DNA of 64,000 nt from Obrimoposthia wandeli (lineage: Eukaryota). Shown in pieces: positions 3,755 to 39,265 of this stretch (positions within the stretch are counted from its first letter, which is position 1; each line of letters begins with the position of its first letter). The notes beneath the pieces were generated by a model. It was not told the DNA's origin. It saw nothing but the letters and a program-made list of their open reading frames with translations, and searched no databases. Position numbers and translations under genes: made by a program. The stretch is taken from assembly GCA_977020255.1 (NCBI GenBank), contig CDROCS010002743.1:186001-250000 (forward strand), written 5' to 3'.

Positions 3755-5514
3755 GTACGTTAACTAATCAAACACATACAATAAATATCAACATTTTACA
3801 TTTTAATATTAGTGTCACAATAAACAAGAAATTTTAAGAAATTTTAACTTCCATTCAAACAATAAACGAAACATTAAATTATAACTGATTATTATGTGAT
3901 AACTATACTTAAGGCTATTGTACCATCATAAAGTAGAATTAATGGTGTACTCAAGCCTGTGTAAATGTTATTTAAAGAAAAAAAAATATACAACTTTAGG
4001 TACTTGATAAATCAGTGTAATTTCATGTTTTTACCAGCGTGTTTACTGTAACTATTAAATTGATATACATGTTATATAGGCGATAGTGTTGGTTAAACGG
4101 TAATTGTTGTGTTTTATCTAAAATATATTTATAAAGCCAAAGGTAATTCTTTCTAATGTTTTTGAACGCCTGTGTCATTTAGTCCTATGGCCTCCCTCTG
4201 ATCTGTCATGGGTGTATCACGTAAATATATTTTATAAAATTTTTTTGAGGATGTAATTCTAGAAAACTATATTGTAATTAAATATTTAGAATTTCGATTT
4301 AGAATCTTGTAAAACGTATAAATAATCAGTTGAGTTTTTGTTAGAAAAGTGTTTTTTCGAAAGCAGACATTTTAAATAATCTGATTCACTGAGATATATT
4401 TTGTTGTGTACTCTGCAATTTTGTAAATTTTATATATATATTTTCACATTGGGGTGTGACCAACCACACACTAATTAAACAGTTGACTAGTTACTTAATG
4501 TACATAATTTAGAAAACGATTGATACTTCTACAGCTTCTAATTTCGCTTCAATCGATATTTGTTTCCATTTTTTTACAGAGGTATTCTTAAAAATAGTAT
4601 ATATTTAATCAAAATATCTAGTTATTATATACATTATCTTTAATATATTATATTTCTAAGTGGATAAATTCAATAATTATTGATCTCTGAATATCTGATA
4701 TAAAAATATTGTATGAGTAGGTAGAAAGATGGAGTCTAGATCACTTAAGCCCCCCCTTTGTGCGCACACAATGTTAAAGGATTTCACAACATAAGGGTGT
4801 CACACCATAAGGGTATATGTTGCCTCACCATAGTGATGACACACCATACAGGTATATGTTGACTCACCACAAGGGTGTCTTGCCACACCATAAGGGTCTG
4901 CCTCAGAAAGGTTAAGATAAGTGGGAGGGAGGAAGGGTCAAGTGATCTAGTTTCCACCCTTCTTTTGGTCAACCACTAAAGGGTTGTAGTCGTCCATAAT
5001 TCAAAGGGTCAGACTCAGTTTTGACTTGAAGGTTTTAAGTTATGGTCATGACCGTCTAGGGTCAACCAACATATCTAAAGGGTCATGGTCGTCCATAAAT
5101 CAAAGGGTCAGACTCAGTTTTGACTTGAAGCTTTGAAGGTATAATTGAGGTCAACTATGGTTGGCCATTACATCTAAAGGGTCATGGACGTCCATAGGTG
5201 AAAGGGTCGGGTTAAATTTTTTTTTTTTAAAATATCAAGGTTTTAGTACATGGTTGGAATCATATTTAGAAAGTTTTAAATGTCAAGGTTTGAATACATG
5301 GTTGTAATCATCTTTAGAAGACGAATTCATCCATATAGGTATGGTCGTCCATAGATGAAGGGTTAAAAATAGTTGGAATTTCATAGTTTTAAGTACATGG
5401 TTGTATTTGTCAACATAAATCGAGTTTAATCATGTAAAAATTTTATGGTCGTTCACAAGGTAAGGGTTAGATTTGGCATAAGTTAAGGAATTATATAGTA
5501 ATTAATCAATTATT

Positions 5515-5822
5515 CTATGTGAAAGTTAAAGTTCACTCTTATCAGTTAAGGAATGTATTACGTAATAACACACACACTATTCTATGTGAAAATTTAGGCT
5601 AAAGTTCACTCTTATCAGTTAAGGAATGTATTACGTAACAACACACACACACACTATTCTATGTGAAAATTTAGGCTAAAGCTCACTCTTATCAGTTAAG
5701 GAATGTGGTACTTAATAACACACACACTATTCTATGTGAAAATTTAGGCTAAAGTTCACTCTTATCAGTTAAGGAATGTATTACGTAATAATACACACAC
5801 TATTCTATGTGAAAATTTAGAT
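5515..5822 (+). repeat. ~61-bp tandem repeat inside left TIR (about 5 copies); mirrored at ~7410-7630 in right TIR
   Basis: Unit TATTCTATGTGAAAATTTAGGCTAAAGTTCACTCTTATCAGTTAAGGAATGTATTACGTAATAACACACACAC repeated head-to-tail. Confidence 0.9.
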
Positions 5823-6037
5823 CAAAGTTTTTTCCAGGCTTATGCATCTAAAGAATTATGATAAAATTTCTTTAAATAACTTAAATTATATATTAAAATA
5901 AAAATAAGAAAGAAGTCAGAGAATAATACAAAATTAAACATATTTATTATGTAATTTCATAATGTCATCTTCAAACTTAAGTGAATAACATTTGCAAAGT
6001 AAGAAAATCCCTTCTCTATACATTCTTTCCGATTCAA

Positions 6038-6900
6038 CGACTAAGTTACAGCGGAATTAATAGAAAAAAAAACACAAAGTTTGACGCTATGAATGAAAAT
6101 TAGTAAAATATTAATGTATTTGAATAATTGAATGATAGTTTGAATAAATGAGAGTTAGATTGAATGTAAATGAATACAAGTATGAATGCAAATGAGTCTT
6201 AGCAAGTGAATGTAATTTAAAAATAAGAGTGTCGAGAGTATGATTGAATGAAAGTGTTATTTAGACTATATGTAAATTAAAATATAGTTTTCGTATAAAT
6301 AAAAGTTATATTAAGTACCAGTTATATTAATAACAAGTAAGCAACTATAAGAAGCAGTGCTACTGAAGTATGTTAAAAGTTAAAATAACTAAGTTATAGT
6401 GAAATTAATAGAAAAATACACTAAGTTTGACGGTATAAATGAAAATTAGTAAAAATATTAATGTATTTGAATGATAGTTTGAATAAATTATAGTTAGATT
6501 GAATGTAAATGAATGCAAGTATGAATGCAAGTGAATGCAAATACATGCAAGAGTCTTAGCAAGTGAATGTAATAGGGGAAAAAATAAGAGTGTCGATAGT
6601 TTGATTGAATGCGAGTGTAATTTAGACTATAAGTAAATTAAAATATAGTTTTCGTATGAATAACGTTTTGTAAAGTTACAGTTAGATTAATAACAACTAA
6701 GCATCTATAAGAAGCAGTGATACTGAAGTATGTTAAAAGTTAGAACGACTAAGTTACAGCAAGATTAATAGAAAACAACACAGAGTTTGAAGGTATGAAT
6801 GAAAATTAGTAAAATATTAATGTATTTGAATGTAATTGAATAATATTTTGAATAAATGTCAGTTAGATTGAATGTAAATGAATGCAAGTATGATTGAATA
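6038..6900 (+). repeat. ~350-bp tandem repeat (2 full copies plus a partial) in the core of the TIR element
   Basis: ACTAAGTTA(C/T)AG..GAATTAATAGAAAA...GAAAATTAGTAAAATATTAATGTATTTGAAT recurs at ~6040, ~6390 and ~6748. Contains TGAATG(C/T)AA micro-repeats. Confidence 0.85.
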
Positions 6901-8894
6901 GCAAGTAGCTACAAGTACAAGTAAGAAAGAATACGATTGCAAGTACGAATGTCAATTATGAATGAAAATGAGTAAATATATTAATAAATTGATAGTTTAC
7001 TGTCGTTTACAATAAATTGACTTGTAAACATAATACATTTATGATTAATAAGTAAACTACTTGAAGTTTTTTGTTGTAAATTATATTTCAGTAATAACTT
7101 ACAACATATTAAACTGAATATATGCAAAAATATATTATTGCAAAATATATTGTTTTTTTCTATTAATTCCGCTGTAACTTAGTCGTTGAATCGGAAAGAA
7201 TGTATAGAGAAGGGATTTTCTTACTTTGTAAATGTTATTCACTTAAGTTTGAAGATGACATTATGAAATTACATAATAAATGTGTTTAATTTTGTATTAT
7301 TCTCTGACTTCTTTCTTATTTTTATTTTAATATATAATTTAAGTTATTTAAAGAAATTTTATCATAATTCTTTAGATGCATAAGACTGGAAAAAACTTTG
7401 ATATAAAATTTCACATAGAATAGTGTGTGTATTATTACGTAACACATTCTTTAACTGATAAGAGTGAACTTTAGCCTAAATTTTCACATAGAATAGTGTG
7501 TGTGTTATTAAGTACCAAATTCCTTAACTGATAAGAGTGAACTTTAGCCTAAATTTTCACATATAATAGTGTGTGTGATTACGCTATACATTCCTTAACT
7601 GATAAGAGTGAACTTTGACTTTCACATAGAATAATTGATTAATTACTATATAATTCCTTAACTTATGCCAAATCTAACCCTTACCTTGTGAACGACCATA
7701 AAATGTTTACATGAATAAACTCTTAATATATTGACCAATACAACCATGTACTTAAAACTATGAAATTCCAACTTTTTTAACCCTTCATCTATGGACGACC
7801 ATACCTATATGGATGAATTCGTCTTCTAAAAGATGATTACAACCATGTATTCAAACCTTGACATTTAAAACTTTCTAAAAATGATTCCAACCATGTACTA
7901 AAACCTTGACATTTAAAACTGGATTTTGTCTTTAGCCCGACCCTTTGATTTATGGACGACCATACTTTATGAATGAATTCACCTTCTAAAGATGATTCCA
8001 ATCATGTACTAAAACCTTGATATTTTAAACTTGATTTTGATTTTAGCCCGACTCTTTCACATATGGACGTCCATGACCCTATATATGTGATGGTCAACTA
8101 TAGTTGACCTCAATTATACCTTCAAGTCAAAACTGAGTCTGACCCTTTGATTTATGGACGACCATGACCCTTTAAATATGTTGGTTGACCATAGACGGTC
8201 ATGACCATACCTTAAAACCTTCAAGTCAAAACTCTGCCTGACTCTTTGAATTATGGACGACCACAACCCTTTAGTGGTTGACCAAAATAAGGGTGGAGAC
8301 TAGATCACTTGACCCTTCCACCTCCCCCCTATCTTAACCTTTCTGAGCCAGACCCTTATGGTGTGGCAAGACACCTTTATGGTGTGACACAATTATGTTT
8401 AGTCAACATATACCCTTATGGTGTGACATCACTATGGTGAGGAAACATATACCCTTTTGGTGTGACACCCTTATGTTGTGAAATCCTTTAACATTGTGTG
8501 CGCACAAGGGGGGTTAAGTGATCTAGACTCCATCCTTCTACCTACTTGTATGGTATCTTAGTTGAAAAAGACATCGGGATATTTAATGCATCTTATTAGA
8601 ATATCTTATTATTGATTTTAACCTACAAAATTTAAAAAGTACAATATTTTCCAAATTAATATCTTTACTCCTTCGTAATGCCTATTTAATACTTAATGTT
8701 GAGATTTATTTCTGGAAAACATCATTTACTAATTATATTGAGTAGTACATAAAATGTAAATATGGAATTATGTTTTATAAGCTTAGTTGACGTTTTTAAA
8801 TTCATGTTTATATGTTTGATATTTTATTAAATAAGTCTTATTGTTTTGAAATTTTTCTATGCCTTTTTTCTTACTATATGTTTATATTAATCCT

Positions 8895-11800
8895 GGTTAT
8901 GATTTCAATCGTAGACAATTCAAAAGAGTCAGATTCTACAAATACAATATATTTATACACACACAGGGTATCTAGGAACAAATATTCTCGATATGATATT
9001 TCCAGCTTCTGATTATTTAACTCTCCCCTTCACTATTCAAACTTCACATCTTCAGTCGTTTGATTCTCCCGAAGAGGTTTCCTGTTGGAAACTGAATTGA
9101 TACCTGTAATGGACTTAAAATTATATTATTCGATATGGGCCTTCATACTTGGGACTATTAATGCTTCTTAATTGAGTCCTTTTTAGCGAGCACCTATTCA
9201 TTGACTTCAAATATCCTCTCCCGTCTTCTTTCATTGTCTAACGTCTCTAACCTTTCAGCTGCAGTTTGTTGGTTCTTCCTTACGTATTAAATGATATTTT
9301 ATTTATTGTTTGTTGTTGCATTTGATGCTTAATTTTTTCTTTTTCTTTCATAAATGATTTTAAATAGGGAATGTTTGAAGAACTATTTACTGTTACATTT
9401 ATAGAAAATTCAATCTGTGGCAATAAATCGTACCAGCATTTTCCAATTTTAGTAGACGCTATTGTCGTAACAATCATATCTCTAACTGTACGTATAGCTC
9501 TTTCTGATGTTGATATGGTGCTGTAGCTACTGTTCAATATCCAATTTTCGTAGCCAATTCTGAAAATAATTTCAGTCAAATATTTGTCCTCTATCTGTTA
9601 AAAGGCTCTTAGGTTTCCCAAATTTAGATATCCAATTTGTCTCGAGTGCTTTAAAAATTGTTATTTCATCTTTTGTAGTTACTGATAGCGATACCAGTTT
9701 ACTAAATCTATCGATTACTATCAGCATATATTTCTTTTTATATCTTTGTTCCTTCAAATCGAGAACTATTTGATCTTTAAAAAAATAACTAAAGGAATAT
9801 ATATTTTGTTTCTTCTGCTTGTTTCAATTTTTCTTTTGGCACATAAACGCATTTTGATATGCATTCTTTTATTTCTTAAAAGTTAAAAGTTCAAATAAAA
9901 GTTATCATCTAGGCGACAAAGATATTGGTGAATTTTATTAGCGTTCTTCGGAGTTATGTAATTAAATCTGTAAAATGTTGTTGCTAATAAAAGAGTTTAA
10001 GTTATTCTTTTATCTGATAAATCCCACTTATTTTGCGTTCTTCTGATAAATCCTTACTTTCTAGTTGGAGGAAAACTTTAATTTCTTTTACGTGAATATC
10101 TTGTTGTTTTTATCTTATCTTACTCAAGAAGTGGTCTTCATTTAGTGAGGGAATATATCTTATTTTAGATATATTCTCTTGTGCATATAAATGTTTAGTT
10201 TCACACTGAGCACAGAATGTTTCATCCAATCTTGACATGCCATCGGCATTACCATGGTCTATATCTTTACGATGTTCTAATTTAAAATGAAATTCTGATA
10301 AATTTGCCAGCCATGTTTGAAATTGAAGACTGATTGGATTTTTCATCGTTCTTAAAAACACTAATGCTTTATGATCTGCTCTTGCCAAAAATTCTGTTCC
10401 ATATAAATATTGTTTGAAATGCATAATAAATTCGTATACTGCTAAAAATTCTTTTCTGGTAACATAATATCCTTTCTCATGGGAAGTCAGATGTTTAGAA
10501 GCGTATGCAATCACTTTTTCGTTTCTCATTTCATCCAGTTGGCTCAATACTGCCTCAATTGCACCAAATCTTGCGTATGTATCAATTATAAATTTTCTAT
10601 TTCACATGGGAAAATTTAACATGGGAGCTGTTGTTAATTTTTCTTTCAGGGGTGCAAAACTTGTTTTACAATCCGGTGACCATTGTATTGACTTTTTTAT
10701 CTCCGGACCCCGCTGCATATAGTGAAGCTGCAATATTTGCATAATCTTTAATAAATCGTCAATAATAGTTTTTCATTCCTAAAAATGATTTTAGTTTTCC
10801 GCTACAATCTGTTTCTTTGAAATTATAATTTCGTTGACTTTCGACTGATTTGTATGTATTCCGCTTTCTGTTATGGTATGACCTAGGAATTTTAACTGTT
10901 TCTGACCAATGTAACATTTATTAGGGTTTATTTTGAGGCCTGTCGCTGCAATTCTTTTGAATACTTCTCTTAATAATTTATAATGTTCTTCTTGGTTGTT
11001 ATTATAAACAAGGATATCATCCAGATATACAATTGTTCCTTTGAACAACTAACTATCCAATATTTTATGCATCAAACTCTGGAATGTTGCCGGTGCTGTA
11101 GCCAACCCAAATGGCATGCGATTGAAACAAAATTGTCCTTATTTTGTACTGAAAGGTGTTTTGCTTTTGACTCTTTCTCTAGATCTATCTGATAATAAGC
11201 TTGTCCAATATTTAATGTCGTAAATATTTTAGCATTACCTAGACAATCGAACAAGAGTTGTGCATCCGGTATGGGAAATGTAAACTTTTTGGTTACAGCA
11301 TTCAATTGTCTATAGTCAACACACATTCAAATTGTATTGTCTGGCTTCTTCACAATGACCAATAGCGAGTTCCAAGGACTTTCACAGCGCCTAATTACGT
11401 TTACTTTGAGTAAATTTTCAATCATTTCATCAACTTGGTTTTCTAAATGCATCGGTTGTCGTCTACGATTTTGACAAATTGGATCGGCAATAGTCTCAAT
11501 CTTATGAGTGACAATTTTGGTACATGCTAGATCAAATTTAGAACACACAAATATTTTCCCAAATTCCTCAATATAATGTCCTAGAATTGAGTCTATCGCA
11601 TTTTAAAAAATTATATATTTTATCTGTTCTTTCTTTCGAGGAAAACGTTTTCATCATGCAAGACGAGTCAAAATTACATACTCCCTGCAGCTTCATCTTA
11701 AATGTTTTCATTGTATCAATTCCAATAATAAATTGTGATTTAATTACTTCTACAACGATTATTTCCAAAACTTTCTCCTTTCCATTCCATAACACTTTAG

Positions 11801-14443
11801 TATTACACGTACCCACAGGCTGTTGATGATTATTCGAAAAATCTCCACTCAGATATAAATGACTCTCTCATTTTGTGACATCCTAGTTTATTTCAACAAT
11901 CCTTACTCATTACAGTAACTGATGCTCTGGAGTCCTACAGCATTTCTACATCTACATCATTAATCTTCATTATACTTAATTCGCGACCATCATTCTTCAT
12001 ATACATATTTTCATTCCTCTTTGGTTCTATATGATTGGTTCCCACCGACGAAATGTGAGCAATTGGAAGTATCACCTTTCCCTGATTAACACCATGTATT
12101 ATCATGTCGTCATTATTACAATCTTCTAAATCTTGATTATTTTCTTCCACTTCTTCTGTTATACAAAGTACTCTTGAAGTTTTATGTGGGTTCTTTAAAA
12201 GATAGCAGTTGTTGAAATTGTGACCTTTTTTTCTGTAAATCAAACATTTGTGATTGAGAAGACATTGATTTCAGAAATGACCTTATTCACTACAACAAAT
12301 ACATGTTCCTGGCTGAAGTTCTTCCCTTTTTGTGACAGGTAGTCCCTTAGCTAAGTTATATTTTCTTTTAGCTATTTGTTTTAAGGAAAACCTTGACATT
12401 TATCTCCTAATATTGTGATTTTGGGCGTCTATATTTATGTCTATTTTTTCTTCATTAACATAATTTCTTTGTTCCTGATGTATTGATACTGGTACTGATA
12501 CTGGTTTCTTCGTATTGTTTGAGAAATGACTGTTGTCAGGACAGTTGAATTCTCTTTTCACAGTATTTGCATACGTATTATGCATTGGTGCAATAACGGT
12601 ATTCTTATTCTCGATTTTGCTTTACACCTTTGCAAACGCCTCTATTTCTTCTTTTTGCATCTGTGGTTTTAATAAGAACTGCTCCTTCAGTTTTTCACTT
12701 CTTACTTTAATCTAAGCGTCAGTCAGCTCATTTTGCTAACATTATTTTTCCATCATAGCCTCAACGAGTTTTTTTCACTCTAATGCTGAACTCTGAGAAA
12801 CGCTCGCCTTCTACTTGCTTCACTTTTGCAAGTTCGCAAACTTTGTCAACTATGGATTTCCTTACTAGGAAATTGTCTTCAACTTTTTTTTGACTTCGAT
12901 ATCTGAATTTAACTTTTACTGGCATCTTTCCATAATAATCCAGCTTCTTCGGTCAACAGCAACTCAAATACATCCCCAATATTAATCTTATTTGCGTCAA
13001 CCCATTCTCCTATATCCTTTAACCATTGTTACTTTGAACTCATTTCATCATATCTTCTTATGTTATACTGGAACATTATTATTTACTCTTTAGGCATAGT
13101 CTTGATGATATTCTTCTTTGATTGACTTCTCGTCACTACATTTATTTCGGCGTGGTCGCCAGTTATGTTTTCTATTGTAGGCATAATTCAAGACTTTAAT
13201 TTCATAACACAATTATATTCTGAATATTAAATATCAGTTTTTTAACAAATTATTGAAAGTAAGATAATTCCGGTTTCTGATTATATAACATTTCTTTACG
13301 ATGTTCTATTTTAAAATTAAATTCTGATAAATTTGCCAGCCATGTTCGAAATTGAAGACTGATTGGTTTTTCATCGTTCTTAATAACACTAATACTTTAT
13401 GATCTGTTCTTTCCAAAATTCTGGTTCATATAAATATTGTTTGAAATGCGTAATAAATTCGTATACTGCTAAAAGTTCTTTTCTGGTAACATAATAGCCT
13501 TTCTCATGAGAAGTCAAATGTCTTGAAGCGTATGCAATCACTTTTTCGTTTCTCATTTCATCCAGTTGGTTCAATACTTCCACAATCGCACCAAAGCTTG
13601 CGTCTTTATCTATTATAAAATTTATATTTCTAAGTCTAATATGAGAACTGTTAATTTTTCTTTTAGTAATGCAAAAACTTGTTTTACATCTGGTGACCAT
13701 TATATTGAACCCGCTGCATATAGTGGAGCTACAATTTTGGAATAATATTTAATAAATAGCCGATAATAGTTTGGCATTCCTAGGAATGATCTTAGTTTTC
13801 CGCTACAATCTGGTTCTTGGAAATTTCTGATTTGTATGTATTCCGCTTTAATATATTATTTATAAAAAGCGTCAGTAGCTCGTATTTGCTTACGTTGTTA
13901 TCCATCATGGTATTAACGAGTGTTTTAAAACTCTTGTGCTGAACGTTGAGAAACGTTCGCATTCTAATTGCTTCATCTTTGCAGTTAGCATATTTTATCA
14001 ACGTTGTATTTCTATTCTAATTTTTTTTTCAAGCCCTTTTTTTACTTCAATTGCTGAGTTAATCGCTTCACTGGTATCCTTCATAATGCAGCTTCATCGG
14101 ACAACAGTAAATCTAATGCATCCCCGATATTAAGATCATTTGCGTTGACCCAGTCTCCTATATCTTTTAACCACTTTTCTCTTTCCTTTGAACTCGTTCT
14201 ATAATATATTCTTATGTTGTACTGCAACATCATTCTAATCTCTTTTGAATGAGACTAGTGAATATTCTCTTTGATTGACTTCTCGTCAATACATTTATTT
14301 CGGCGTGGTCATCAGTTATGTTTTCAATCGTAAACATAATTCAAAATAGTCAGATTCTACAAACACTATATTTATACATGTATACAGAATATTTATATAC
14401 AAATATTCTCGATAGGATATTTCTGGCTTCTGATTACATAACT
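8895..14443 (-). mobile_element. Degenerate Ty3/Gypsy LTR retrotransposon with three ~130-bp LTRs
   Basis: LTRs at 14314-14443, 13161-~13290 and 8895-9022 (AGTTATG...CATAACT termini in the intact copy). PBS TGGCGACCACGCC at ~13149-13161 (-). PPT GAAGGGGAG at ~9024-9032 (-). Two broken CCHC knuckles (~12200-12310), PR (L*DSRAS), RT (MCVDYRQLN, VYLDDILVY), RNase H (VIAYASKHL...RADHKAL...HGNADGMSR) and IN (LIVIDRFSK...LLTDRG...ERAIRT). Many stops and frameshifts. Confidence 0.92.
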
Positions 14444-14476
14444 ATCACAGTTAATTTGCTAAACGTCGTTGCGCAG

Positions 14477-14680
14477 ATCCGATTGCAGATGCAGCGAACG
14501 ATGCAAGAGCACGCTGCCGTCTTCCGCGACGGGCCTGTGTTACAGGAGGGTGTCAAGAAGATGTATGATATCTACAACAACTTGATGCCCACTATGCGCG
14601 TACATGATCGCAGTCTCATTTGGAACTCGGATCTTGTAGAAGCCCTCGAACTACAAAATCTGATGCTGAATGCTCTTCAG
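14477..14680 (+). CDS. SDHA: SDHA exon
   Basis: IRLQMQRTMQEHAAVFRDGPVLQEG...WNSDLVEALELQNLMLNALQ. cag|ATC...CAG|gtctga, 204 nt. Confidence 0.97.
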
Positions 14681-15180
14681 GTCTGATTGATTTTCTAACT
14701 TCAGCTCACTAATTTTGATAACAAATACCACAAAAAGTTAAAATCAATTCTATTCCATAAATACATGTTTTTAAATAAACTTAAGGACGTGAAATTCTGC
14801 GTATATTTTACGATTTTCAGCAATCACATGGAAATATTTAACATAATATACAATTATATTTTTTATTTGATTTTACCACTTTGAATAAAATATTTATTCT
14901 ACTTGTTAGATTGAACAACTTCGTATGTCGAAAACAATAAGAGTAGATAAAAAGGCAAATGTTAAGTTGAGTTCAGATGGATGTCGACTTGTAGACAGTT
15001 TGCAGAAGATACGAGAGGAACACAATAATCTTTATTGTTTGTTTTGACTTCTACATTTTGGTGAAATTTTATTCAATACGATTGACGCCAGGAACGGTTC
15101 ATCTGACATGTTTCTAGAAGTAATTCAGCACCCATGGTGCTCCATGCATCACTGCTAAAGTGAGCATCGTTCTCCTGCAG

Positions 15181-15444
15181 ACCATCGTGAGTGCAGAGAC
15201 TCGCAAGGAAAGTCGCGGAGCGCACTCGCGGGAGGACTTCAAGACGCGCATCGATGAGATCGACTATGCCAAGTCGCCCGAGGGTCAGACGCCGTTACCG
15301 ATGGAGAAGCACTGGCGCAAGCATACACTGTCCTCCCAGGACATCGCCAGTGGTAAGGTAAAACTCGAGTACCGGCCGGTAATCGATGGCACTCTGGACG
15401 AGTCTAAGTGTCAAAGCGTGCCGCCCAAGATCCGTTCATACTGA
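15181..15444 (+). CDS. SDHA: SDHA terminal coding exon
   Basis: [20 protein letters not shown]...HWRKHTL...LEYRPVID...VPPKIRSY*. Acceptor cag| at 15180. Confidence 0.97.
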
Positions 15445-18270: not shown

Positions 18271-18340
18271 CAGTGCTTTTCAACCTTTTTGCTGGAGCGG
18301 AACCCCATGGAAACATTCCACTGGCTGGAGGAACCCTGTG
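18271..18340 (+). mobile_element. Probable hAT-type left end (solo)
   Basis: CAGTGCTTTTCAACCTTTTT...GGAACCCC resembles hAT/Charlie-type termini. No partner end found. Confidence 0.4.
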
Positions 18341-18889
18341 CAATAATTTAATAATTAGTGAATGTAGCTTCAACAGACTGCCTCAGATCTTGCGTCTCTT
18401 CATCTGCCAATCTCAAAATCGTATGAATAGGACACCACGTACCCTTTTTCAATAATTTCTCAACTTACCCAGTAAGTTAGCATATTTTGAGTAAAATCTC
18501 CTCTCACTGAAATAACCTTAGGTCACTTCAGCTACTCAAATAAACCCCAGCTAACATCATCATTTTATCGGATTGTCACTCACAAAGTCCCTGTGTCCGT
18601 AGTAATTATCTGTTTGGGTTAATTATGCATTGTAAGTCTTGATTAGTCTCACTTAGTCTGTTTTCCAGTTTGATTCTAATCCAAAATTATATCGAAAATT
18701 CTGCTGATTAAAAATGGCCCAGTAGGCATTCGTATTAATTCATGTGATTTCAATAAAGAAAGCATCACGTCGTATCCATTTAAACTTTAAAAATAAGTTG
18801 AAGACGTTACTGTTGGAGTTTGTTCCTATTTCTTTTCAAATCCAAGGCCTATTCGCACACAAATACATATTTTCCAACGAGTGTATGTG

Positions 18890-19260
18890 TTGGGGTTTTC
18901 TAATGAAACCTGATTAGAATCATCGTATAGAGACCCCCAACGTGAGTTCTGTATCGATAGGACTTATAGATGGATATGTCCTACCTATTCTCGATTATTT
19001 GAAGGTTTTTTTTTCAATCTGAAGGTTTGCTGTATTGTATTGTTTGTATTGTTTTGCCAAGACTGTGTTCAGGATAACTGGAGAGTCCCTAAAACTATTG
19101 TTGTGTTGCGTGTGGCTGATGTTTTAAGCCGGTTAGACAGATTAATATTTTGGATTAAAAAGGGTCTGTGATACACAAGACCTAAAATAAGCAAAAACTA
19201 AGCCGGAATCAATCGACGTTGACGATACTCCTTTGAATATATCAAGGCTTGAACTAGCGT
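18890..19260. repeat. Dispersed repeat, copy 1 (related copy at ~37430-37740)
   Basis: Shared blocks CGTGAGTTCTGTA..GATA, GGAT..GT.CTACCTATTCT, CCTAAAACTATTGT.GTGTT and GCAAAA.TAAGC.GGA in the same order at both loci. Confidence 0.6.
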
Positions 19261-27883: not shown

Positions 27884-28177
27884 CAGGGGTTCCCAAAGTG
27901 GGTTCCGTAGGCAAAATCAGGGTTTCCACAAGCCAAAATTTAATAAAAAATAAATGTACAAAAATTGGCATTAACGTTACTCGCATCTATCTACCAGGGT
28001 ATAGGCCCACTATAACTACTTAATAAATACTTGAATGTAGTTTAACTTTAAATTTTTAATCATTTTTCAATATAATTAAGTTTTATTTTTATGCTTTACT
28101 TTATAGTTTTAAGTATTTTTAAATATGGAGGGGTTCCAATATTTTTTTAAGCAGCAAAAAACGTTTGGGAAACCCTG
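27884..28177. mobile_element. hAT-family MITE (294 bp)
   Basis: TIRs CAGGGGTTCCCAAA / TTTGGGAAACCCTG. Perfect 8-bp TSD ATATAGTG at 27876-27883 and 28178-28185. Confidence 0.92.
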
Positions 28178-28488
28178 ATATAGTGTATTTATCATGAAAT
28201 AAAAATGCTTTCAATAGGAATTTTTGAAGTTTCTAAATTTAAATTGACCGCCAATTTTTTTTTATAATAATTTCTTTAGATTTGCTGTTATAAAAATAAT
28301 CGTTATTCGAATAAAATTCTACTAAACTTAAAATATATTTTTATACCGGAAATTGTAAAGAAAAGCATAAAATTTATTTTGTCTAAAGACGAAAAAAATG
28401 CATACGAACTGTGAAATTTAATATAGAAAAACAACGGAAATTCTGCAGACAAACAATAAGACTGATACAATATGTCTCACTATTTCAG

Positions 28489-28582
28489 AATCTCTGTGGT
28501 TGTGGTATATCCGGTTTTGGTCCTATCATATTAGGTCCTTTCCTGTCTGTTACCAAGATTCTCAGAACCCTTTTATTACGAG
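28489..28582 (+). CDS. LRRC74-like exon 4
   Basis: cag|AAT...CGA G|gttagg, 94 nt (phase 0 to 1). NLCGCGISGFGPIILGPFLSVTKILRTLLLR continues the LRR and joins exon 5 in frame. Confidence 0.8.
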
Positions 28583-29599
28583 GTTAGGATTATTCTTCAT
28601 TTTTTTTTGATTTTATATGTTTTTATATGTATTTCCCATTTTATAAATGTCAAATAAAAATTAATGCATTTTATAAGGATAAGATTAAATCCTTTTATAA
28701 TTTAAAATATAAAAAATCGGGAATAAGCAGAATATATGACATTAATCGAAGCACAGTCAGACAATTTCGGTGTAAGATTTTGGAAAGATCTGGTATACCT
28801 GTGAAGTAACCTGTAAAAGAAACAAAAAATCATCTCATTGTTAGAAATATAATTTTCATCAATCTTTGTCTGATATATCAATCGGAACTATTAGAATATG
28901 TATCAAATATGCTAGTTTTAAAAATCGTAAAGAAGATAATTAAATCAACTCACAGATATTCAAAAGAAGAACCGTTTAGATTTCGGGATGAAATATTGTT
29001 GATGAAGAAATTAACATTGGTCAAGAATAGTTTGAACAAATGAAGCATCTGTTAACTATGAGGTTAAGATGGAAGAATTAAAATTTAATTATGGTCAGGA
29101 TAAGAGGAAGGTGAAGAGACTACTCTGTCTGTGTGTCAATGATGAGGTTTGAAAATTGCTTATAAGGAGAGCGATTTGGTTTAGAAGTCCATATACAAGT
29201 TCTAAAGGATTATGTAGCTAGCATTTCATTTATAAAAGCATAAACTTCTTCAGATTGACCTTATATGATGATAATAGTATAGAAATACAACTCAGTAGCA
29301 AGGTGGCTCAACAAAGAATTACCCTAGTCGTCGCCTCAGAAGTTTTAAACTTTTTGACGTGTCTCGTGAACTTTTAGACATGATTTATGGACTTTTAGAC
29401 ATTTGCCACGTTGCCACTGAATAGTCATTTTGTCTATGATTTCAAAACCTAACACAACTCTAATTTTTCACTGATTTCAAATTCAAAAATCGATAATTTC
29501 CCTTCACTAAAACAAATTTGAATTAAATTTGATTAGATAAAATGAAATAACTCATATTAACCTCAAATTTTACACTAATATAAATTTTACAAATTTTAG

Positions 29600-29835
29600 T
29601 CCCATCTTCAGATTATAATAGTTTTAACATTACTTTTATACGAATGTGCATTATCATCAGTAACATTAAGTGACGACTTAATATCTTGTTGGCACAACAA
29701 AGAACTACCCTCGGAGTAATTATCTTGTGGCGCTATGCCACCTAGTCATCACTTTAAGAGTTTTAGATTTTTAGACATAACTCATGGACTTTAAGGCATG
29801 ATTTATGAACTTTTAGATATTTGTCACGGAGCCAG
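29600..29835 (+). repeat. Dispersed repeat; inverted copy at ~34380-34590 and partial copy at ~29300-29440
   Basis: AGTCCCATCTTCAGATTATAAT...CACTTTAAGAGTTTT...GACAT.ACTCATGGACTTT...TATTTG.CACGG.GCCAG matches the reverse complement of 34380-34590. Confidence 0.75.
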
Positions 29836-30549
29836 CGAATGAACTTTTAAAGAAATAAATTGAATATTCATATTATATTAATAAGACAATGGCAAAAATA
29901 TCAAGTAATTTAAATATATATATTTGTTGTTGTTGTTATGAAGATTATTATTATACTCAGTAACACTTTCAGTTACACTTTCAGTCATACTCTATAACTC
30001 TAGTTCATTTACACATTCGATATTACAAACTTTTTTTTATCTACTCTTGTTATCATTTAGTATCATTTTAAACCAAACTCTCTAACTCATTTATTTATAT
30101 ATATTTTTTTATATTATCTTTTATTTTATAATTAATATTTGTTTGTTTGATATTTATGTTTTAAATCAAATTTGTTTAATTACATCAATAGAAACAATGA
30201 AAACTTTGCGTAAAAATAGTAAAATATTTTGAGTTTATTAAACATTTTTGCTTAATTTTTATATTTAAAAAAAAACTACATTTCAATATTTTATTTTTCA
30301 AAATTTTTCATGTAAAAATAATTTTTTTAATGTTTGCGTTTTAAAAAATTACACTTTAATATAATATTTAATATCATTGTTTAAATAAATTAATAAAATT
30401 AATAAACATTTTCGTAAATTTAAGTATTTATAAAAAAAAAAGTTAAGCATTTTGAGTTTATTAATATTGTTTACTTAATATATATTTTTAATAATGGTAC
30501 TTTAATATTTCATTTTGGCACAAATTTAAATTAAAAATATTTTTAGTTT

Positions 30550-31254
30550 TTCACCAGGACTCTTAACTTATGCAAAACCATAGGGATATGGTTGAACTAA
30601 ATTTTGATAGACAAATACAACCATGTAATGAAATTATCAAGTTTGTTCCAAATCTGAACCTTAATTTGTTGACGACCATAAAATTTTTACATGATTAAAC
30701 ACACAATATTTTGACAATCCCAACCATGTACTTAAAACTTTGAACTTTTTTACCCTTTCATCTATGGTCGACCATACCTTTATGGATGAATTCGCATACT
30801 AAAGATGATTCCAACCATATAATAAAACCTTGATATTTTAAACTTTATTTTGTCTTTATCCCGACCCCTTCATTTATGGACGACCATAACCCTTTAGATG
30901 TGATGGCCAACCATAGTTGAACTCAAATATACCTTCAAGTTATAACTGAACCCAACCCTTTCATCTATGGACGACCACAACCCTCTGGATGTGTTGGTCA
31001 ACTATAGATGGTCACAACCATATCTTCAAACCTTTAAGTCATAACTGAGTCCGACCCTTTCATCTATGGACGACTACAACCATAAAAGATCACGATCATA
31101 CCTTCAAACCTTCATAACCTTTCTCAGCCAGACCCCTATGGTGTGGCAAGCTACTCTTGGTATGGCGTAATCACTTTTTGGAGTGCACACGCATGAATTT
31201 GTTAGTGTGCGCACACGGGGGTCAAGTGTTCTAGACTCCGTCCTTCCCCCTACT
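30550..31254 (+). mobile_element. Solo diverged right-hand TIR of the same Polinton-type family as 4716-8546
   Basis: Colinear with ~7660-8546 (TATGGACGACCAT motifs, GCCAGACCCT..GGTGTGGCAAG, GTGTGCGCACA). Ends CTAGACTCCGTCCTTCCCCCTACT. Confidence 0.85.
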
Positions 31255-31342
31255 AACCTGAATTAACACATACTGAATTGAGTAATTTAAAATCAATAAA
31301 TTTAGTTTCGATAAAACTTCGTAAGATAGATTAAAATCCCGA

Positions 31343-31719
31343 GATGTTATTGTTATAGATGATTTGTTTAATGAAGTAAAAATATAGATGTCATAATTTA
31401 TTTACAAACATAGCATTACATAAACATGCTACTGTAATATTCATTATTAAAATCTATTCCATCACGGAGGAAAGCACAGGACGAGGAATTTAAATGTATA
31501 TATCTTAATAATATTTAAAAATCCAAGACATAAAACGATTATTGATTTTGTGACGAGACAAGCTTTTCAATGTAATAGAAAAATTTGATTGAGGCATTGT
31601 AAGATGCAACAGTTAATCCTTATGGATACTAATTTTTAGATTTCACACAAAATTGTCCAGATGAATTAAGAGTGAGAACTTATATATTTAATAAGATAGG
31701 TAATATCAACAAAATATGA
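31343..31719 (+). pseudogene. Polinton/Maverick packaging ATPase (FtsK-HerA/A32-like), C-terminal half, frameshifted
   Basis: Across frameshifts: DVIVIDDLFNEV (Walker B)...NLFT...HKHATVIFII..NLFHHGGKHRTRNLNVYILIIFKNPRH...RQAF...DATVNPYGY*FLDFTQNCPDELRVRTYIF. Confidence 0.85.
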
Positions 31720-32402
31720 AACAAAAAGAGAAAGAAAAAGTGCCAGTGGTTGTAGGTTCAAAATGGAAACCTGGTAAACCAGTAACAAAAGGAGCGAATT
31801 TAATATTTAAAAAGAATAATGAACAAGTTACAAAACTTATAAAATTAGTTCTTAATGAACGTAATAGAGATAACGATTTCTTTAAGAAATAAAAACCAAA
31901 ATGGAAATCAAAAGAAAAAAAAGAAAACAAACCAAAATGGATTTATTTAAATAAAAAACAAAATGGTGGAAGTAAATTTTCCTTTTGTGTCATCCTCTTA
32001 TCTGCTAAAATAGCATCGATTAATGGTTGAAATTCCATAATAATAATAATAATGAAACTAAAATATTTCTTTTACATACTCTTCCTGCATTACTTAATTT
32101 TATTGATACAGTAAAACAAGTGTTCTTTTATTTAATAATAGATAATAATATAAAATTTCGAATTAAATAAAATACACATGATATATAATAACCTAAATAC
32201 ATTGACCTTTATAAAATTATATTATACATTATTTTCATTAAATTACTTTCGTTTAACTTATATAATTATAAAATTGATGAATTTAAACAAAATTTCATTT
32301 TTAATATTAGTCTTGTACAACTTGTTATTTATTTACTTGATTGTCCATATAGCCAAACTATTTTAATTCTGAATATATATATATATATATAGTAAAGTTA
32401 TT

Positions 32403-32720
32403 TTACCATATAATTATGATACTGAGGAGTCTAACTTGAAACTCAATAACCACCTAAATCGGCATTTCCTAAAAATGTAACAAATTTGCAAACATTCGTG
32501 CTCCCAATCATTTACATAATTTTCTTGATGAATTATCTATTGAATCAATTAAACAGTATTCTCATGGTTCTAAAGGTAAAAATTTACTGTTAATCCATGA
32601 AGATAAGAAAAACAATATCAAATATTTTCAATATTTGCACTTTTGATGTATTTTTGGAGTTAAAGTTACTCAAGTATATAGAATAATTCAATTTTATCCA
32701 ACACCAATATTTAAGTAATA
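32403..32720 (+). pseudogene. Protein-primed DNA polymerase B (Polinton pPolB) fragment, internally deleted
   Basis: LPYNYD...PPKSAF resembles FPYxY...LPPKEAF. It is followed by PNHLHN...KNLLLIHEDKKNNIKYFQYLHF*CIFGVKVTQVYRIIQF..PIFK*Y, resembling KLLLTLEDKxNYVVHY...LGxKVTKIHRxxxF...WLKPY. Confidence 0.7.
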
Positions 32721-34574
32721 TACACCTGACTCAACTCAACGATAATAATCGTCAATGTTGTGTATCACCCTATTAAATTTATTATAAATTATAAAACTGA
32801 ATGAACTTACTATAGGTTTAGGTACGCAAACTTTCAAATCAACGTTGATACCTCAAATAATTGGCGATAATAACATAAACGCATTTAAACACTCACAAAG
32901 ATGGTATCATGTATTTTTGATTATAGAAAAAGGATTTAATCTAACGGTGATACGTAAAATGAACAGAGGTATAATTTTAAAAATGTTTCATGAACTTAAA
33001 ATGATTTTAGAATAATTTTTTAACTTTCTTAATATTTTAAGGATATAAATGTCTTTTAAAAGTGATAATCAAACTATCTTATATTTCATTCAAACGAAAT
33101 ATTTTTGAATATGATGATAATTTTGATAATAATGATGAAAATACTCCTGAATATGCTATTATAATTAAATAGAATCAAAGAAAATATGTTTGCGTCTTAA
33201 TTCTAAATAGTTTTACATTTTAAGAGATTAATTGAATTTGAAAATAATAATAATCCTACGTTTTTATTTATTTTCGTTCTTGGACATAATATACTTAAAA
33301 GCCCTATCGAGACATATTTTTATTTTATAACATGGGATCATACGAATCATTATCAATTTTCAACAAAAACAAAAAAACTACAAATAAATAATTCATAATA
33401 ATAATTTATTACACTTTTGTCTTTCATATGTATATATTTTCATGAAAGTATTTTTATGAGTACATTTTTATGCATTGTTTATAGAATACATATCATGACT
33501 TATTCTGTCTTTTTCATCATAAAGAATTTTTAATTAATATGATTATAAACAAATTAGTTTTATTCTAACTTTATTCATTAGAATGATAAAATAAAATCCC
33601 TCGTATCAAAAACTTGAGATTGGAAATTTCGAACTCAGAATTGAAAATGAGTTATCTAGAAAATTAATTAGATATACAAGAGTTGAAAATTGAAATTGTG
33701 AAGTTAAAACTTCTCATTTTAAAACGTCAAATATAGAAAAATGAAGTTATAAATAAATCTTTATGTTTCTTCAGTCTTTTTAATTAATTAAGATTTGAAC
33801 CATTCAAAATCATTAACCAACCAAAATTTATGTAAATGATATAAAAATTAACCGATTTAATTATATTTCAAAAAATATTTCAGTTTTTACACATCACGGA
33901 AATTAATTTACGAAAGGCTGTTAGATATATTCAATTATTATGACGGCACTTCATATAAAATATTATTACTTTACTTCATGATAAATATGATTGTGAGAAT
34001 GACAAAAAATCTGAAAGGGAGAATGAAAATAACTGAACCATTTTTAGTAACTATAGATGATTTTCTATTTTATCTTATTCTATTTTTTATTAATTATGCA
34101 AATTAATTTGCAAAAATAGAGCGAGATGGTGACCAGGTAATGCAGTGTGGCATATCAGCAAAAGCAGGTCTTCTATGACTTACTTAGTTTTAATCCTAAC
34201 TTATTTGTATAAAAAAGTAAAATTGAATTACTTCACTTCATCAAACCTAATTTTATTTAAATTTGCTTTAATGAAGTGAATTGCTTTTTGAATTTGAAAT
34301 CTGTGTAAAATTTTAGTTACCAAAGGTTTGGAAATTATACCCAAAAAGTCTAAATATAGTAACAAATGAAAAAAATGTAATGATTCACTGGCACCGTGGC
34401 AAATATTTAAAAGTCTAAAAATCATCTCTAAAAGTCCATGAGTCATGTCTAAAATTTAAAACTCTTAAAGTGACGATTAGATGGAACATAGGCACAAAAG
34501 AGAACTAGCCCAAATTAATGTTACTGATTTTAATGCAATTTCCCATAAAAAGTAATGTTAAAAACCATTATAAT

Positions 34575-34825
34575 CTGAAGATGGGACTTCGAATAATTTA
34601 TTGGGCAGCAAAGTCACCGAATTTAAATCCGATAGATATTGTATGGTGTATTTTATTTAAAAAAACTGATGACAGAAGATACGATAGTACGATAATTTAT
34701 TCCCTTTAGCGATAATTATCAAATACTGTTGTAATCAAATACCTTACTCTATTATATACCAAATAATTGGAAGTATGAATTAAAGAGTAACGAAGCTCAG
34801 ATAAAAGGGGGTTTAGTATTAATTG
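34575..34825 (+). mobile_element. Tc1/mariner transposase C-terminal relic
   Basis: WAAKSPNLNPIDIVW resembles WPxxSPDLNPIENxW, followed by IGSMN*RV...KGG. Confidence 0.75.
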
Positions 34826-36166: not shown

Positions 36167-36298
36167 ACAATGAATTCAACGATGAAGACGGCAGAATACT
36201 GTTTGAGTGTTTGGCCTCTAATCGCAGTCTCAAAAAGCTGGATCTGTCAAAAAACCGCTTTTTTCTGCGCTGTGCTCGAGAGCTGGAGACCATGATCG
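36167..36298 (+). CDS. LRRC74-like exon 5
   Basis: cag|AC...ATC G|gttagc, 132 nt (phase 1 to 1). (D)NEFNDEDGRILFECLASNRSLKKLDLSKNRF. Confidence 0.9.
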
Positions 36299-38474
36299 GT
36301 TAGCATTATTCCATAATGTTTGCTGTTTTTGTTAACAAGTTATTTCTGAAGTAAACTGATCTTGAGATAGTGTTATATATTAAATATAACTATTTTGTTA
36401 TAAAAAATACAAAAAAACTACATTTTTTACCCTTTATTCATAACAGTTGTTATTAAAAAAATTGTTGGTTCTTTTTAAGAAATCCTCCATTTTAATAATT
36501 AAATAAAGTGCATATGATATTTATATTTTATGAAAGAAAATATTTTTACTTTGATTAAATTATCTGAATATTTAAACATAGCAAAATTAAAATTTCAAAT
36601 AATACAATGCTGCTATTAAAAGATCTAATATCGAGAAAAATTAAAATATATGTCTTATATAAAATAATTTATAAATGTTTCCTTTTCTTAATATGATTTT
36701 TAAAATTAAAACCTTTGGGAATTCTAAAAAAGTACCTTTTTATATAACAAGTTTATTAAAACTTTTTCACCTGAAGTATGACTATTCTAATAATTGTCCC
36801 AAAATTTTATTTGCACTTGATTTTTAAAAATGTAATTCAGACGTTTCTTAGAACAAATTTTTGCTTCATATTGCTCTCTTACAACTGAAGAATAAGATTA
36901 AACCAAGTAACAGATCACACAATAAATATATTTTACTATTTTGAATTTAGTTACGAAATTTTTAAATAATAGAAAAATATGAAAATTTGAAAACGAGGTA
37001 TTACTTGGCCTAGAAATGAAAGAGAAAAAAATAATGAAATATTATGTGGATATTTAAATAAAAAACATTATAAAAAGTGTATAAATTTACAAAAGGGATT
37101 CTTTCGTTTGATAAAATATGTCAATTATATGAGTAATTTTCTGTTCTTATGAAAACTGGTCAAAATTAATCAAATAAATTTATATTTTGATTTACATTTA
37201 TGAATAATTACATTCTGTTCACAAAACTTGTCAAGAATTTTTTATTTATTTTGACATAAAGACATTATATAGTGAAGCTCTGCAAAATGAAAGTACTTTT
37301 AGTTATCTCCGAAACGTTACAACAAAAAATTCAAATTTTCAAATAACAAGACGTGCATTATTTATATAAATGTAACAAGAAAAATCAAATATTAATCTTA
37401 TTTGTTAAAATATTTCAAAATATATTCATATTGTTGGAGTTTTCTTTTAAACTTAGATCCTCGTACAGAGGCCCTTACCGTGAGTTCTGTAGCGATATGG
37501 CTTATATATGGATGTGGTCTACCTATTCTAGTCTTCGAAGGTTTTTGTCATGTGTTAATGAGTTTTGTACAAGATAACTTAAAATTCCTTAAAACTATTG
37601 TAGTGTTATGTGGTGCTGAACAATAAACCGGTTAAGCCGAATGTTAATTTAATTCAAAAATAGTTTGGCAAAACCACTACCAGAAATAGGCAAAATTAAG
37701 CTGGACTTAATCGGTGCTGACAGTAACCTTCTGAATATATTCACGGATTAATTATTGGCCTCAAAATGTAGTTAAATTACTTTAAATTAACGTTGGCTCA
37801 AAGGGTGGAATGATACTAAGACAGTGTTATTAAAAGTCTTAAATTATACGATTTAACACCTATAAAATGATTACAAATTAATTCGTACGTGGCGACGCTC
37901 TATACGTTTAACAATGAACAATGAGATTCTATATTCTCCAACAATTGTAGAAATAATTTATTTTAGAGTTATTTAACTATTTTAATAACACTTTGAATAT
38001 TTAGTGTTTTATATGTTAACATTTTTCGTGGCGATTATTCTTCGTGCGAATTTTCACTGACTATTTTTATGGTTTGTGTAATATCTATGTACTTCTTGAT
38101 TTTACAGTTTCTGCTTCTGATATCGGTTCCTTCAAATGCTATTTTTACAAGGGCATTTTTAAAAAATTTCTTCTCATATATACATATTTTTAATGATCTT
38201 TTCAAGGTCTTAATTTATTACTTAATTTTCGTTTTTTTAAAAAAGAAATTTTAATTTAATTTAATTTTGATTTAATTATTTTATAACCTTCAATTTAGAA
38301 GGTTATTTATTACTATAAATACTGTTGTTATTTATTTAACATCATTTTTCCTAATCTAACAATTTAAACGAAAATATAACTTTAAAACTTAATTTTTAAT
38401 TTAAAGGAAATAAAAAGATAATTTCAGATAATTTCTACAAGGAAAAACACGATAACTGTTATTAAATCATGCAG

Positions 38475-38560
38475 AGGACAACGACATTCTCGAAGAGCTT
38501 GATCTCAGCTGGAATCAGATTCGTATGAGCACTGCCGCAGGAATTGCGAAGGGTCTTCGA
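38475..38560 (+). CDS. LRRC74-like exon 6
   Basis: cag|AG...CGA|gtatgt, 86 nt. (E)DNDILEELDLSWNQIRMSTAAGIAKGLR; LDLSWN is typical of LRRC74. Confidence 0.92.
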
Positions 38561-39091
38561 GTATGTTTTTGACAGGTTTAGAGCAAAGTACGAGTACTAA
38601 ATTCAAATTGCGTTAATTCAAACTTTCAAATAAAATTCGTAAACTTGAACTTGACAAATGTAATGAAATCAAGTATAGTCACATTCTAAAGATGTTCCAA
38701 AACTGACTCTTACAACTATTGACAATCTTACTTTTTCTATTTAGTTACCTTATTTTGAATATTCCTAATAAAACACATTTTTAAAATTATTCATAAATAT
38801 AATTTCTAAATAAACTAATAATTTGAATATTTACAATTTATTTTCTCCTTCCTTTTCGAATGTGTGCAAATGTTACAGATGTTTTCTAGACAATTTAAAT
38901 CTGCAAATGCACTTTTTGGACCCTGAGGGATAATTTACACTTGGGATAATTTAATTGCATAATACAGTAGTGAAATGAATAATTTTAGATTATTCTGCGA
39001 TACAGAAGGAAAAATTATGAGTAATAATTATTTTAAGAACACATAATAAAACGTCTTATAATCACCGATTTCCCAAATATATTAATATGTC

Positions 39092-39265
39092 AGTAGGTGG
39101 ATGTGTCCGGTCTAATCCACACCCCCTTGTCCTTTAAAACCGTGCATGTGTGTGGAGTGAAATTTCACTCCACACACCTACACGAAATTTCACTCCACAC
39201 ACATGCACGGTTTTAAAGGACAAGGGAGGAGGGAGTGTGGATTAGACCGGACACATCCATCTACT
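39092..39265. mobile_element. 174-bp fold-back element with AGTAG...CTACT termini and 6-bp TSD (Polinton-type MITE)
   Basis: Arms of ~75-80 bp are near-perfect reverse complements. TSD TATGTC at 39086-39091 and 39266-39271. Contains internal perfect palindrome GTGTGTGGAGTGAAATTTCACTCCACACAC. Confidence 0.85.

What the first reader, a model, noticed from the sequence alone, without database searches (positions are those of the whole stretch)
4716..39265. A Polinton/Maverick family seen at three scales in one locus, including a MITE-sized form
Seen: three elements share AGTAG...CTACT termini (4716-8546, 39092-39265, and a solo end at 31254). The two intact ones have perfect 6-bp TSDs (TGTATG, TATGTC). 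Decayed packaging-ATPase and pPolB genes lie beside the solo TIR. Established: AG-starting long TIRs, 6-bp TSDs, pPolB and an FtsK/A32 ATPase are Polinton/Maverick hallmarks. Inference: this genome has Polinton(-virus) elements that mobilise gene-less passengers, down to a 174-bp hairpin. Such satellite or defective-interfering derivatives are much less documented than MITEs of cut-and-paste transposons.
Basis: partly seen in the sequence, partly recalled or inferred. Interest (0 to 1): 0.82.

Follow-up and report, generated by a model that had tools for sequence, protein, structure and literature searches.

The report
Gene-less Polinton-ended elements, one hairpin-sized
A flatworm-like genome holds two gene-less insertions (3.8 kb and 174 bp) whose ends resemble those of Polintons, large virus-like transposons; if the tiny one proves to be multi-copy, it would be a minimal passenger showing these elements move DNA inside the cell without virus particles.

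Summary
The elements are real. A (4716-8546) has ~1.36-1.39-kb TIRs (95.6% identical) and an exact 6-bp TSD; C (39092-39265) is a 174-bp hairpin with an exact 6-bp TSD; B is a solo right end at 31254, ~83% like A's TIR. Their terminal hexamers occur in gene-bearing vertebrate Mavericks, and a decayed pPolB piece is confirmed at 32491-32742. Three corrections. (1) B faces away from the ATPase-like and pPolB pieces, so they lie outside its element; the ATPase is supported only by recalled motifs. (2) C shares only ~40-85 terminal bases with A and B: a sister family, not a smaller scale of one family. (3) Each element is one copy here, so 'MITE' and 'mobilised in trans' are untested; in-place deletion remnants would look the same. 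C is a zero-spacer palindrome of a ~71-bp end with a 25-bp duplication over the axis, as fold-back copying would give. Non-autonomous Polintons are catalogued, but the five N-labelled ones in a 72-element table are 11-15 kb. Verdict: probable gene-less Polinton-lineage derivatives; new size variant of a known kind; interest 0.5 until copy number is known.

The parts
4710..4715 (+). left target-site duplication of element A (TGTATG)
4716..6070 (+). element A left TIR, 1355 bp, starts AGTAGG; modular with 39-, 99-, 48- and 73-bp sub-repeats; holds an inverted copy of the terminal motif at ~4931-4970
   Evidence: 1207 matches, 56 mismatches to the right TIR
6071..7152 (.). element A non-coding core, 1082 bp, 24% GC; ~355-bp tandem units (6036-6904, 2.4 copies by TRF); imperfect AT-rich palindrome 7117-7151 at the inner edge of the right TIR
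   Evidence: no Pfam match in six frames of 6000-7201; no ORF >=85 aa in A
7153..8546 (-). element A right TIR, 1394 bp, ends CCTACT
8547..8552 (+). right target-site duplication of element A (TGTATG)
30590..31254 (-). element B: solo right-hand TIR end of the A lineage (ends CCTACT, interior to the left); no left partner or matching TSD found
   Evidence: (357 matches, 75 mismatches to A's TIR; 20 of 23 terminal bases)
31325..31700 (+). decayed putative packaging-ATPase C-terminal half (Walker B-like at 31346 and four later motifs, two frames, stops); no Walker A in the window; outside element B
   Evidence: recalled motifs located (patterns chosen after seeing the sequence); Walker A scan empty; database searches negative or weak
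32491..32742 (+). decayed protein-primed DNA polymerase B fragment (~85 aa of a >1000-aa enzyme, with stops); outside element B
39086..39091 (+). left target-site duplication of element C (TATGTC)
39092..39265 (.). element C: 174-bp hairpin, AGTAGG...TCTACT; 75-bp arms; perfect 30-bp palindrome centred on 39162/39163; 25-bp tandem duplication 39159-39209 across the axis; 7-bp indel between arms
   Evidence: (-86.6 kcal/mol, z -19.9, 0 of 200 shuffles)
39266..39271 (+). right target-site duplication of element C (TATGTC)

Best explanation
A, B and C are gene-less, non-autonomous elements of the Polinton/Maverick lineage, from at least two related families (A/B and C), moved by enzymes of autonomous Polintons elsewhere in the genome. 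Shown: Maverick-type terminal hexamers, a conserved ~40-bp terminal block in all five ends, exact 6-bp TSDs, no coding capacity, and a decayed Polinton polymerase in the same genome. Inferred: the retroviral-like integrase binds the terminal block and inserts with a 6-bp stagger; the excised or displaced single strand folds into a panhandle (1.36-kb stem in A, 75-bp stem in C) that pPolB can copy from a protein primer (model recalled from Kapitonov and Jurka 2006, not read here). C probably arose when copying from one end folded back after ~71 bases, giving a zero-spacer palindrome; a 25-bp slippage duplication later opened a loop. B is the surviving end of a copy that landed in, or was rearranged against, an older decayed Polinton.
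For: TSDs and TIR pairs. AGTAGG//CCTACT ends in Sphenodon Mavericks and AGTAGA//TCTACT in Crotalus Mavericks in the supplementary table of PMC8097293. TIR range 46-1447 bp and 6-bp TSD. C is related to A and B beyond the five bases used to pick it: 0-3 of 3000 in each of three nulls for bases 6-40, and 0 of 3000 against B for bases 6-65 and 6-85. Among 81 AGTAG sites, the five element ends rank 1-5 for likeness to A's end. pPolB remnant. Among 254 of 254 ORFs >=52 aa, the only integrase hit lies in a Gypsy pol and the only transposase hit is Tc1-type DDE_3. Host is triclad-like (best named identity Dugesia japonica PC2, 87%), and Schmidtea has four listed Polintons of 11.6-15.9 kb. Three such elements in 64 kb suggest amplification, since vertebrate Mavericks have a median of 8 copies per genome; this is an inference from a pre-selected window.
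Against: One copy of each; no autonomous element with these ends was seen. The gene pieces lie outside B, so no gene is physically tied to any of these TIRs. The ATPase has no database support. C differs from A at 7 of 23 terminal bases. Pfam misses even the confirmed pPolB piece (protein 127), so the absence of other transposases in the window is weak evidence. Fold-back origin and symmetric in-place deletion give the same product.
Confidence: 0.6

Rival explanations
1. A and C are dead remnants: longer Polintons inserted here (making the TSDs) and later lost their interiors in place through hairpin-driven deletion between the TIRs. They never moved in their present form, so C is not a MITE.
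For: Most vertebrate Mavericks (96%) are degraded fossils; Polinton TIR fragments and rearrangements are documented in C. elegans (passages); B and the scrambled gene pieces show heavy local decay; only single copies are seen.
Against: Both TSDs are intact and C's arms differ by 2 substitutions and one 7-bp indel, so a 10-kb loss would have to follow insertion quickly and land exactly on a symmetry axis. A's core is non-coding tandem repeat with no trace of Polinton genes.
Confidence: 0.25
2. A/B are foldback elements and C a MITE of a cut-and-paste DDE superfamily with 6-bp TSDs (IS3EU/GingerRoot, Ginger2 or an undescribed one); the Polinton gene pieces beside B are a chance neighbour.
For: A's modular, sub-repeated TIRs look like foldback elements. 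The genes are outside B. MITEs are typical of cut-and-paste systems (established knowledge).
Against: IS3EU/GingerRoot end in TA..TA or TG..CA and Ginger2 in TGT; the ends here match recorded Maverick hexamers. No such transposase among 254 ORFs (weak test).
Confidence: 0.1
3. B's end is part of the very element that encoded the ATPase and pPolB, joined to its own gene by integrase-mediated self-insertion or inversion; A is a deletion product of that lineage. This differs from the best explanation only in B's history.
For: The ATPase-like frame begins within ~70 bp of B's terminus and lacks its Walker A part, as if cut at the terminus.
Against: No N-terminal ATPase piece, second end, or AACCTG-flanked TIR was found to the left; left of B lie ~700 bp of 16% GC sequence and Tc1-like pieces.
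Confidence: 0.3
4. Chance repeats or assembly artefact.
For: Long inverted repeats can be mis-assembled; reads were not available.
Against: Arms are diverged (95.6%, with sub-repeat number differences), TSDs are exact, and the flanking host gene (SDHA) exons run on in order around A.
Confidence: 0.03

Closest known systems
Autonomous Polinton/Maverick (Polintoviricetes), e.g. vertebrate Mavericks of PMC8097293 and Polinton-1_SM/-2_SM of Schmidtea
   Same: 6-bp TSD, AG-type terminal hexamers including AGTAGG//CCTACT and AGTAGA//TCTACT, long TIRs; pPolB remnant nearby
   Different: Intact vertebrate elements are 12.7-24.6 kb with eight core genes; A is 3.8 kb, C 174 bp, neither has a gene
Repbase non-autonomous Polintons (Polinton-1N1_DR, -2N1_DR, -N1/N1A/N1B_NV)
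   Same: Polinton ends with core genes missing; presumed trans-mobilised (N = non-autonomous is stated for other Repbase names and applied here by inference)
   Different: The five N-labelled rows in Table S1 of PMC4028283 are 11,092-15,469 bp and the smallest of the 72 listed elements is 10,272 bp; A is about a third of that and 72% TIR, C about 60 times smaller
[quoted passage not shown]
   Same: Short or TIR-dominated, non-coding, TSD-flanked
   Different: Ends and TSD point to a Polinton integrase rather than a cut-and-paste transposase; high copy number, which defines MITEs, is untested
Snap-back defective genomes of linear DNA viruses (AAV, PMC8235507, listing only) and hairpin derivatives of protein-primed linear plasmids (recalled)
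   Same: End-only, self-complementary molecule with almost no spacer
   Different: C is integrated with a TSD; no replication, packaging or interference is shown

Membership tests
Polinton/Maverick (autonomous) | 6-bp target-site duplication | tested here: met
   A and C, exact 6 bp; B has no partner
Polinton/Maverick (autonomous) | AG-type repeated terminal motif | tested here: met
   AGTAGG/AGTAGA ends; not the commonest (AGT)2 form (713 whole-word counts) but recorded in gene-bearing Mavericks (AGTAGG 37, AGTAGA 28 counts, all columns; first five rows of each seen)
Polinton/Maverick (autonomous) | TIRs of tens to ~1450 bp | tested here: met
   A 1355/1394 bp, C 75 bp against 46-1447 bp
Polinton/Maverick (autonomous) | Length about 10-25 kb or more | tested here: not met
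   3831 bp and 174 bp
Polinton/Maverick (autonomous) | pPolB and retroviral-like integrase encoded between the TIRs | tested here: not met
   No ORF >=85 aa in A; 0 of 6 ORFs >=52 aa in A have a Pfam match; the pPolB piece lies outside B
Polinton/Maverick (autonomous) | Packaging ATPase, protease, capsid genes | tested here: inconclusive
   None in A or C; ATPase-like motifs outside B by recall only, database tests negative or weak
Non-autonomous Polinton | Termini shared with an autonomous Polinton of the same genome | not testable with these tools
   No eukaryotic genome collection or host assembly was available; only bacterial/archaeal genomes, phages and plasmids
Non-autonomous Polinton | Several dispersed copies with distinct TSDs | not testable with these tools
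   One copy each of A and C in 64 kb; B is a diverged relative of A
MITE | Short, non-coding, TIRs plus TSD | tested here: met
   C: 174 bp, 75-bp arms, 6-bp TSD
MITE | High copy number of uniform size | not testable with these tools
   Single copy in the window
IS3EU/GingerRoot and Ginger2 (other 6-bp-target DDE transposons) | TA..TA or TG..CA termini (TGT for Ginger2) | tested here: not met
   Ends are AG..CT

The most novel reading that the evidence does not exclude
C is one copy of an amplified family of ~170-bp Polinton satellites: snap-back products of protein-primed replication made of nothing but a ~71-bp end and its mirror image, excised, copied and integrated by Polinton enzymes in trans, with A as a larger TIR-only relative. 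They are far too small for the constrained ~17-kb virion genome, so their spread would show virion-independent transposition by Polinton machinery inside the cell and would define its minimal cis signal.
Probability: 0.35. Interest if true: 0.75.

Novelty: new variant of a known kind. Interest (0 to 1): 0.5.

Why it matters
How animal Polintons leave the chromosome, replicate and re-insert is largely inferred. PMC2836005 calls the excision mechanism unknown, and PMC8097293 argues for spread by virions with a genome size constrained near 17 kb. A multi-copy 174-bp gene-less element with Polinton ends could not plausibly rely on that route. It would argue for intracellular transposition in trans, mark the minimal end sequence (the ~40-bp block shared by all five ends here), and give a short natural substrate for integrase and pPolB assays. 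The surveys read here find elements through proteins or with a 6-kb lower size filter, so such elements would be invisible to them and would be filed as unclassified DNA repeats. If C is a one-off remnant, the locus is an ordinary record of Polinton decay.

Tried and rejected
ATPase confirmation: homologue searches with two separate pieces (4 candidates, none significant; no candidate), Pfam, NCBIfam, PDB, phage tblastn. PHROGs gave one unnamed family at E=0.012 (26). A single-sequence model had pLDDT 38 (78) and its fold search gave 0 matches at E<=0.001 (84), which is uninformative. The language-model atlas gave no reading of this piece. Fetching a real Polinton ATPase as a comparator failed: GTDB scan gave 3 loci with pPolB relatives (43) whose ORFs matched nothing in the window (44; one hit at E=0.017 discounted); phage collection had no pPolB match (51). 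The Lys-rich ORF 31704-31889 and ORF 32788-33012 stay unassigned. The inverted repeats 29324-29840 / 34202-34588 were considered as older Polinton TIRs around the genes and rejected: 68-70% identity, no TSD, and they run into a Tc1-type DDE_3 fragment. Pairing A's left end with B was rejected (flanks TGTATG vs AACCTG). No left partner for B among 5 exact AACCTG sites or 8 near matches (52). The pPolB profile found no second fragment (52; the profile was built from hits to the first fragment, so its E-value there is circular). Rfam: 0 matches (76). Literature search was swamped by primer sequences and gave nothing. The mirror-side match of C's CACTCCA to B may be coincidental and is not relied on.

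Full report
Setting. The window is animal DNA with AT-rich introns. It holds an SDHA gene (FAD_binding_2 and Succ_DH_flav_C exons, 2585-15441, +), an LRR/EF-hand gene (+) and a PC2 convertase gene (-, 49-64 kb). The best identities for a PC2 exon are 88% to an unnamed record and 87% to Dugesia japonica, against about 80% for vertebrates and molluscs, so the host is probably a triclad flatworm; I did not identify it further. A lies in the ~10.7-kb SDHA intron 3756-14477 beside a decayed Gypsy element. B, the gene pieces and C lie between exon-like stretches of the LRR gene (exon assignment by eye).

Observation. A (4716-8546) and C (39092-39265) are there as described, each with an exact 6-bp TSD. 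Of 938 AGTAG...CTACT pairs, 2 have a 6-bp flanking duplication. Chance alone would give about 0.66, so the count is not the evidence; the evidence is that both fall on independently defined TIR pairs, each at a 6-mer frequency near 4e-4. A's TIRs are 1355 and 1394 bp, with 1207 matches and 56 mismatches, and differ mainly in sub-repeat number. Its 1082-bp core is ~355-bp tandem units and AT-rich sequence with no Pfam match in six frames; A has no ORF of 85 aa. C folds into one hairpin (-86.6 kcal/mol, 0 of 200 shuffles). It has a perfect 30-bp palindrome centred on 39162/39163 and a 25-bp tandem duplication across that axis: a ~71-bp end joined to its mirror image with no spacer, the centre later opened by a slip.

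Relationship of the three. B (about 30590-31254) is 82.6% identical to A's TIR over 432 ungapped columns and matches 20 of 23 terminal bases. C matches A at 16 of 23. Leaving out the five bases used to select them, C is still related: 0-3 of 3000 in three nulls for bases 6-40 against both A and B, and 0 of 3000 against B out to base 85, while against A the signal fades (12-46 of 3000). Among 81 AGTAG sites on both strands the five element ends rank first to fifth. So there is one lineage of ends and at least two families; C is not a deletion product of A or B.

The gene pieces. A stretch read with X at stops gave 12 phmmer hits among 1.84 billion proteins, E 2.4e-6 to 7.4e-4; 9 of 12 carry DNA_pol_B_2 and 4 of 12 Endonuclease_7; 11 of 12 align to 32491-32742 at 32-37%. 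That is a real but small pPolB remnant, and no second piece was found. The ATPase reading rests on five motifs I recall from Polinton ATPases, in order at 31346, 31448, 31514, 31618 and 31663 (patterns chosen after seeing the sequence). Nine tool tests did not confirm it (negative; 26 one unnamed family at E=0.012). I think it likely but unproven. B either landed in an older Polinton or was turned against its own genes; neither is shown.

Which superfamily. PMC8097293 (passages, section 7 and supplementary table rows) gives 6-bp TSDs, TIRs of 46-1447 bp and (AGT)2 or (AG)3 ends as typical. Its table also lists AGTAGG//CCTACT ends in Sphenodon and AGTAGA//TCTACT in Crotalus, on gene-bearing elements. 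IS3EU/GingerRoot also make 6-bp TSDs but end TA..TA or TG..CA (PMC10045372, passages); Ginger2 ends TGT (PMC2836005, passages). Pfam on 254 of 254 ORFs of 52 aa or more found one rve hit, in Gypsy pol order, and one Tc1-type DDE_3 hit; this scan also missed the confirmed pPolB piece, so it is a weak negative. Schmidtea has four listed Polintons (PMC4028283, passages and Table S1) and silences Polintons by PIWI (PMC8532177, passages). I put the Polinton origin of these ends at about 0.85.

Mechanism. Most likely (0.6) A and C moved in their present gene-less form using Polinton integrase, and perhaps pPolB, in trans. The 6-bp TSD and the conserved terminal block are shown; integrase binding, panhandle replication and fold-back origin of C are inferred, partly from the model of Kapitonov and Jurka 2006, which was not held and is recalled. 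The main rival (0.25) is in-place loss of the interior of longer insertions; single copies cannot exclude it. A cut-and-paste superfamily is less likely (0.1).

Novelty. Non-autonomous Polintons are known: Polinton-1N1_DR is named in PMC9341505 (one passage; 2 supplementary files searched without a hit, one not searchable). In Table S1 of PMC4028283 the five N-labelled elements are 11.1-15.5 kb and the smallest of 72 is 10.3 kb; that table is from 2014 and was chosen for protein analysis. Six searches of the open library and passages of 10.1101/2025.02.07.637071 (23), PMC6431247, PMC5499653, PMC11296320, 10.1101/2024.01.15.575659 (46), PMC12859917, PMC8504770, PMC12220804 and PMC10120064 showed polB-less Polintons, TIR fragments and fragmentary consensuses, but no MITE-sized Polinton derivative. 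Repbase, Dfam, subscription papers and bioRxiv supplements were not visible, so this is not proof of absence. The snap-back analogy rests on a search listing (PMC8235507) and on recall.

Verdict. As autonomous Polintons A and C fail membership; as non-autonomous derivatives they pass every test possible here and the defining ones (partner, copy number) were not testable. New variant of a known kind, interest 0.5; 0.75 if C proves to be an amplified family (probability 0.35).

Noticed in passing
window 4931-4970 and 8280-8320: Each TIR of A carries an inverted copy of the terminal motif ~220-250 bp inside, so the outer ~250 bp can fold on itself (z -2.55, 1 of 200 shuffles). B lacks it. Such units could be another source of tiny derivatives.
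   Followed up: partly
window 4716-6070 vs 7153-8546: TIR divergence is higher in the outer 500 bp (31 of 488 columns) than inside (25 of 775), Fisher p=0.011; could reflect later homogenisation of the inner part or the higher GC of the outer part.
   Followed up: partly
window 7117-7151: Imperfect AT-rich palindrome sits at the inner edge of A's right TIR; may mark a fold-back junction or be chance.
   Followed up: no
window 8896-14446: Decayed Gypsy retrotransposon in the same SDHA intron (RT, RNase H, rve pieces on the - strand; direct repeats 8896-9025/14315-14446, 82%; internal duplications).
   Followed up: partly
window 29324-29840 and 34202-34750: Tc1-like pieces in opposite orientation (68-70% identical; DDE_3 at ~34572-34685) bracket B and the Polinton gene remnants, hinting at an old inversion or nested insertions.
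   Followed up: partly
window 31704-31990 and 32788-33012: A Lys-rich frame after the ATPase-like piece and a 75-aa ORF after the pPolB piece; possibly further Polinton gene remnants, no family found.
   Followed up: partly
window 18888-20301 and 37432-38361; 1456-1704 and 17616-18270: Old dispersed repeats (68-79% identity) of undetermined kind.
   Followed up: no
window 40562-40732: A separate reverse-transcriptase fragment (RVT_1, E=6e-12) in an intron of the LRR gene.
   Followed up: no
L001 501-3914, L002, L003 25-3110: Three bacterial MAG contigs encode Polinton-type pPolB relatives (37-50% identity); probably eukaryotic or viral contigs mis-binned into MAGs.
   Followed up: no
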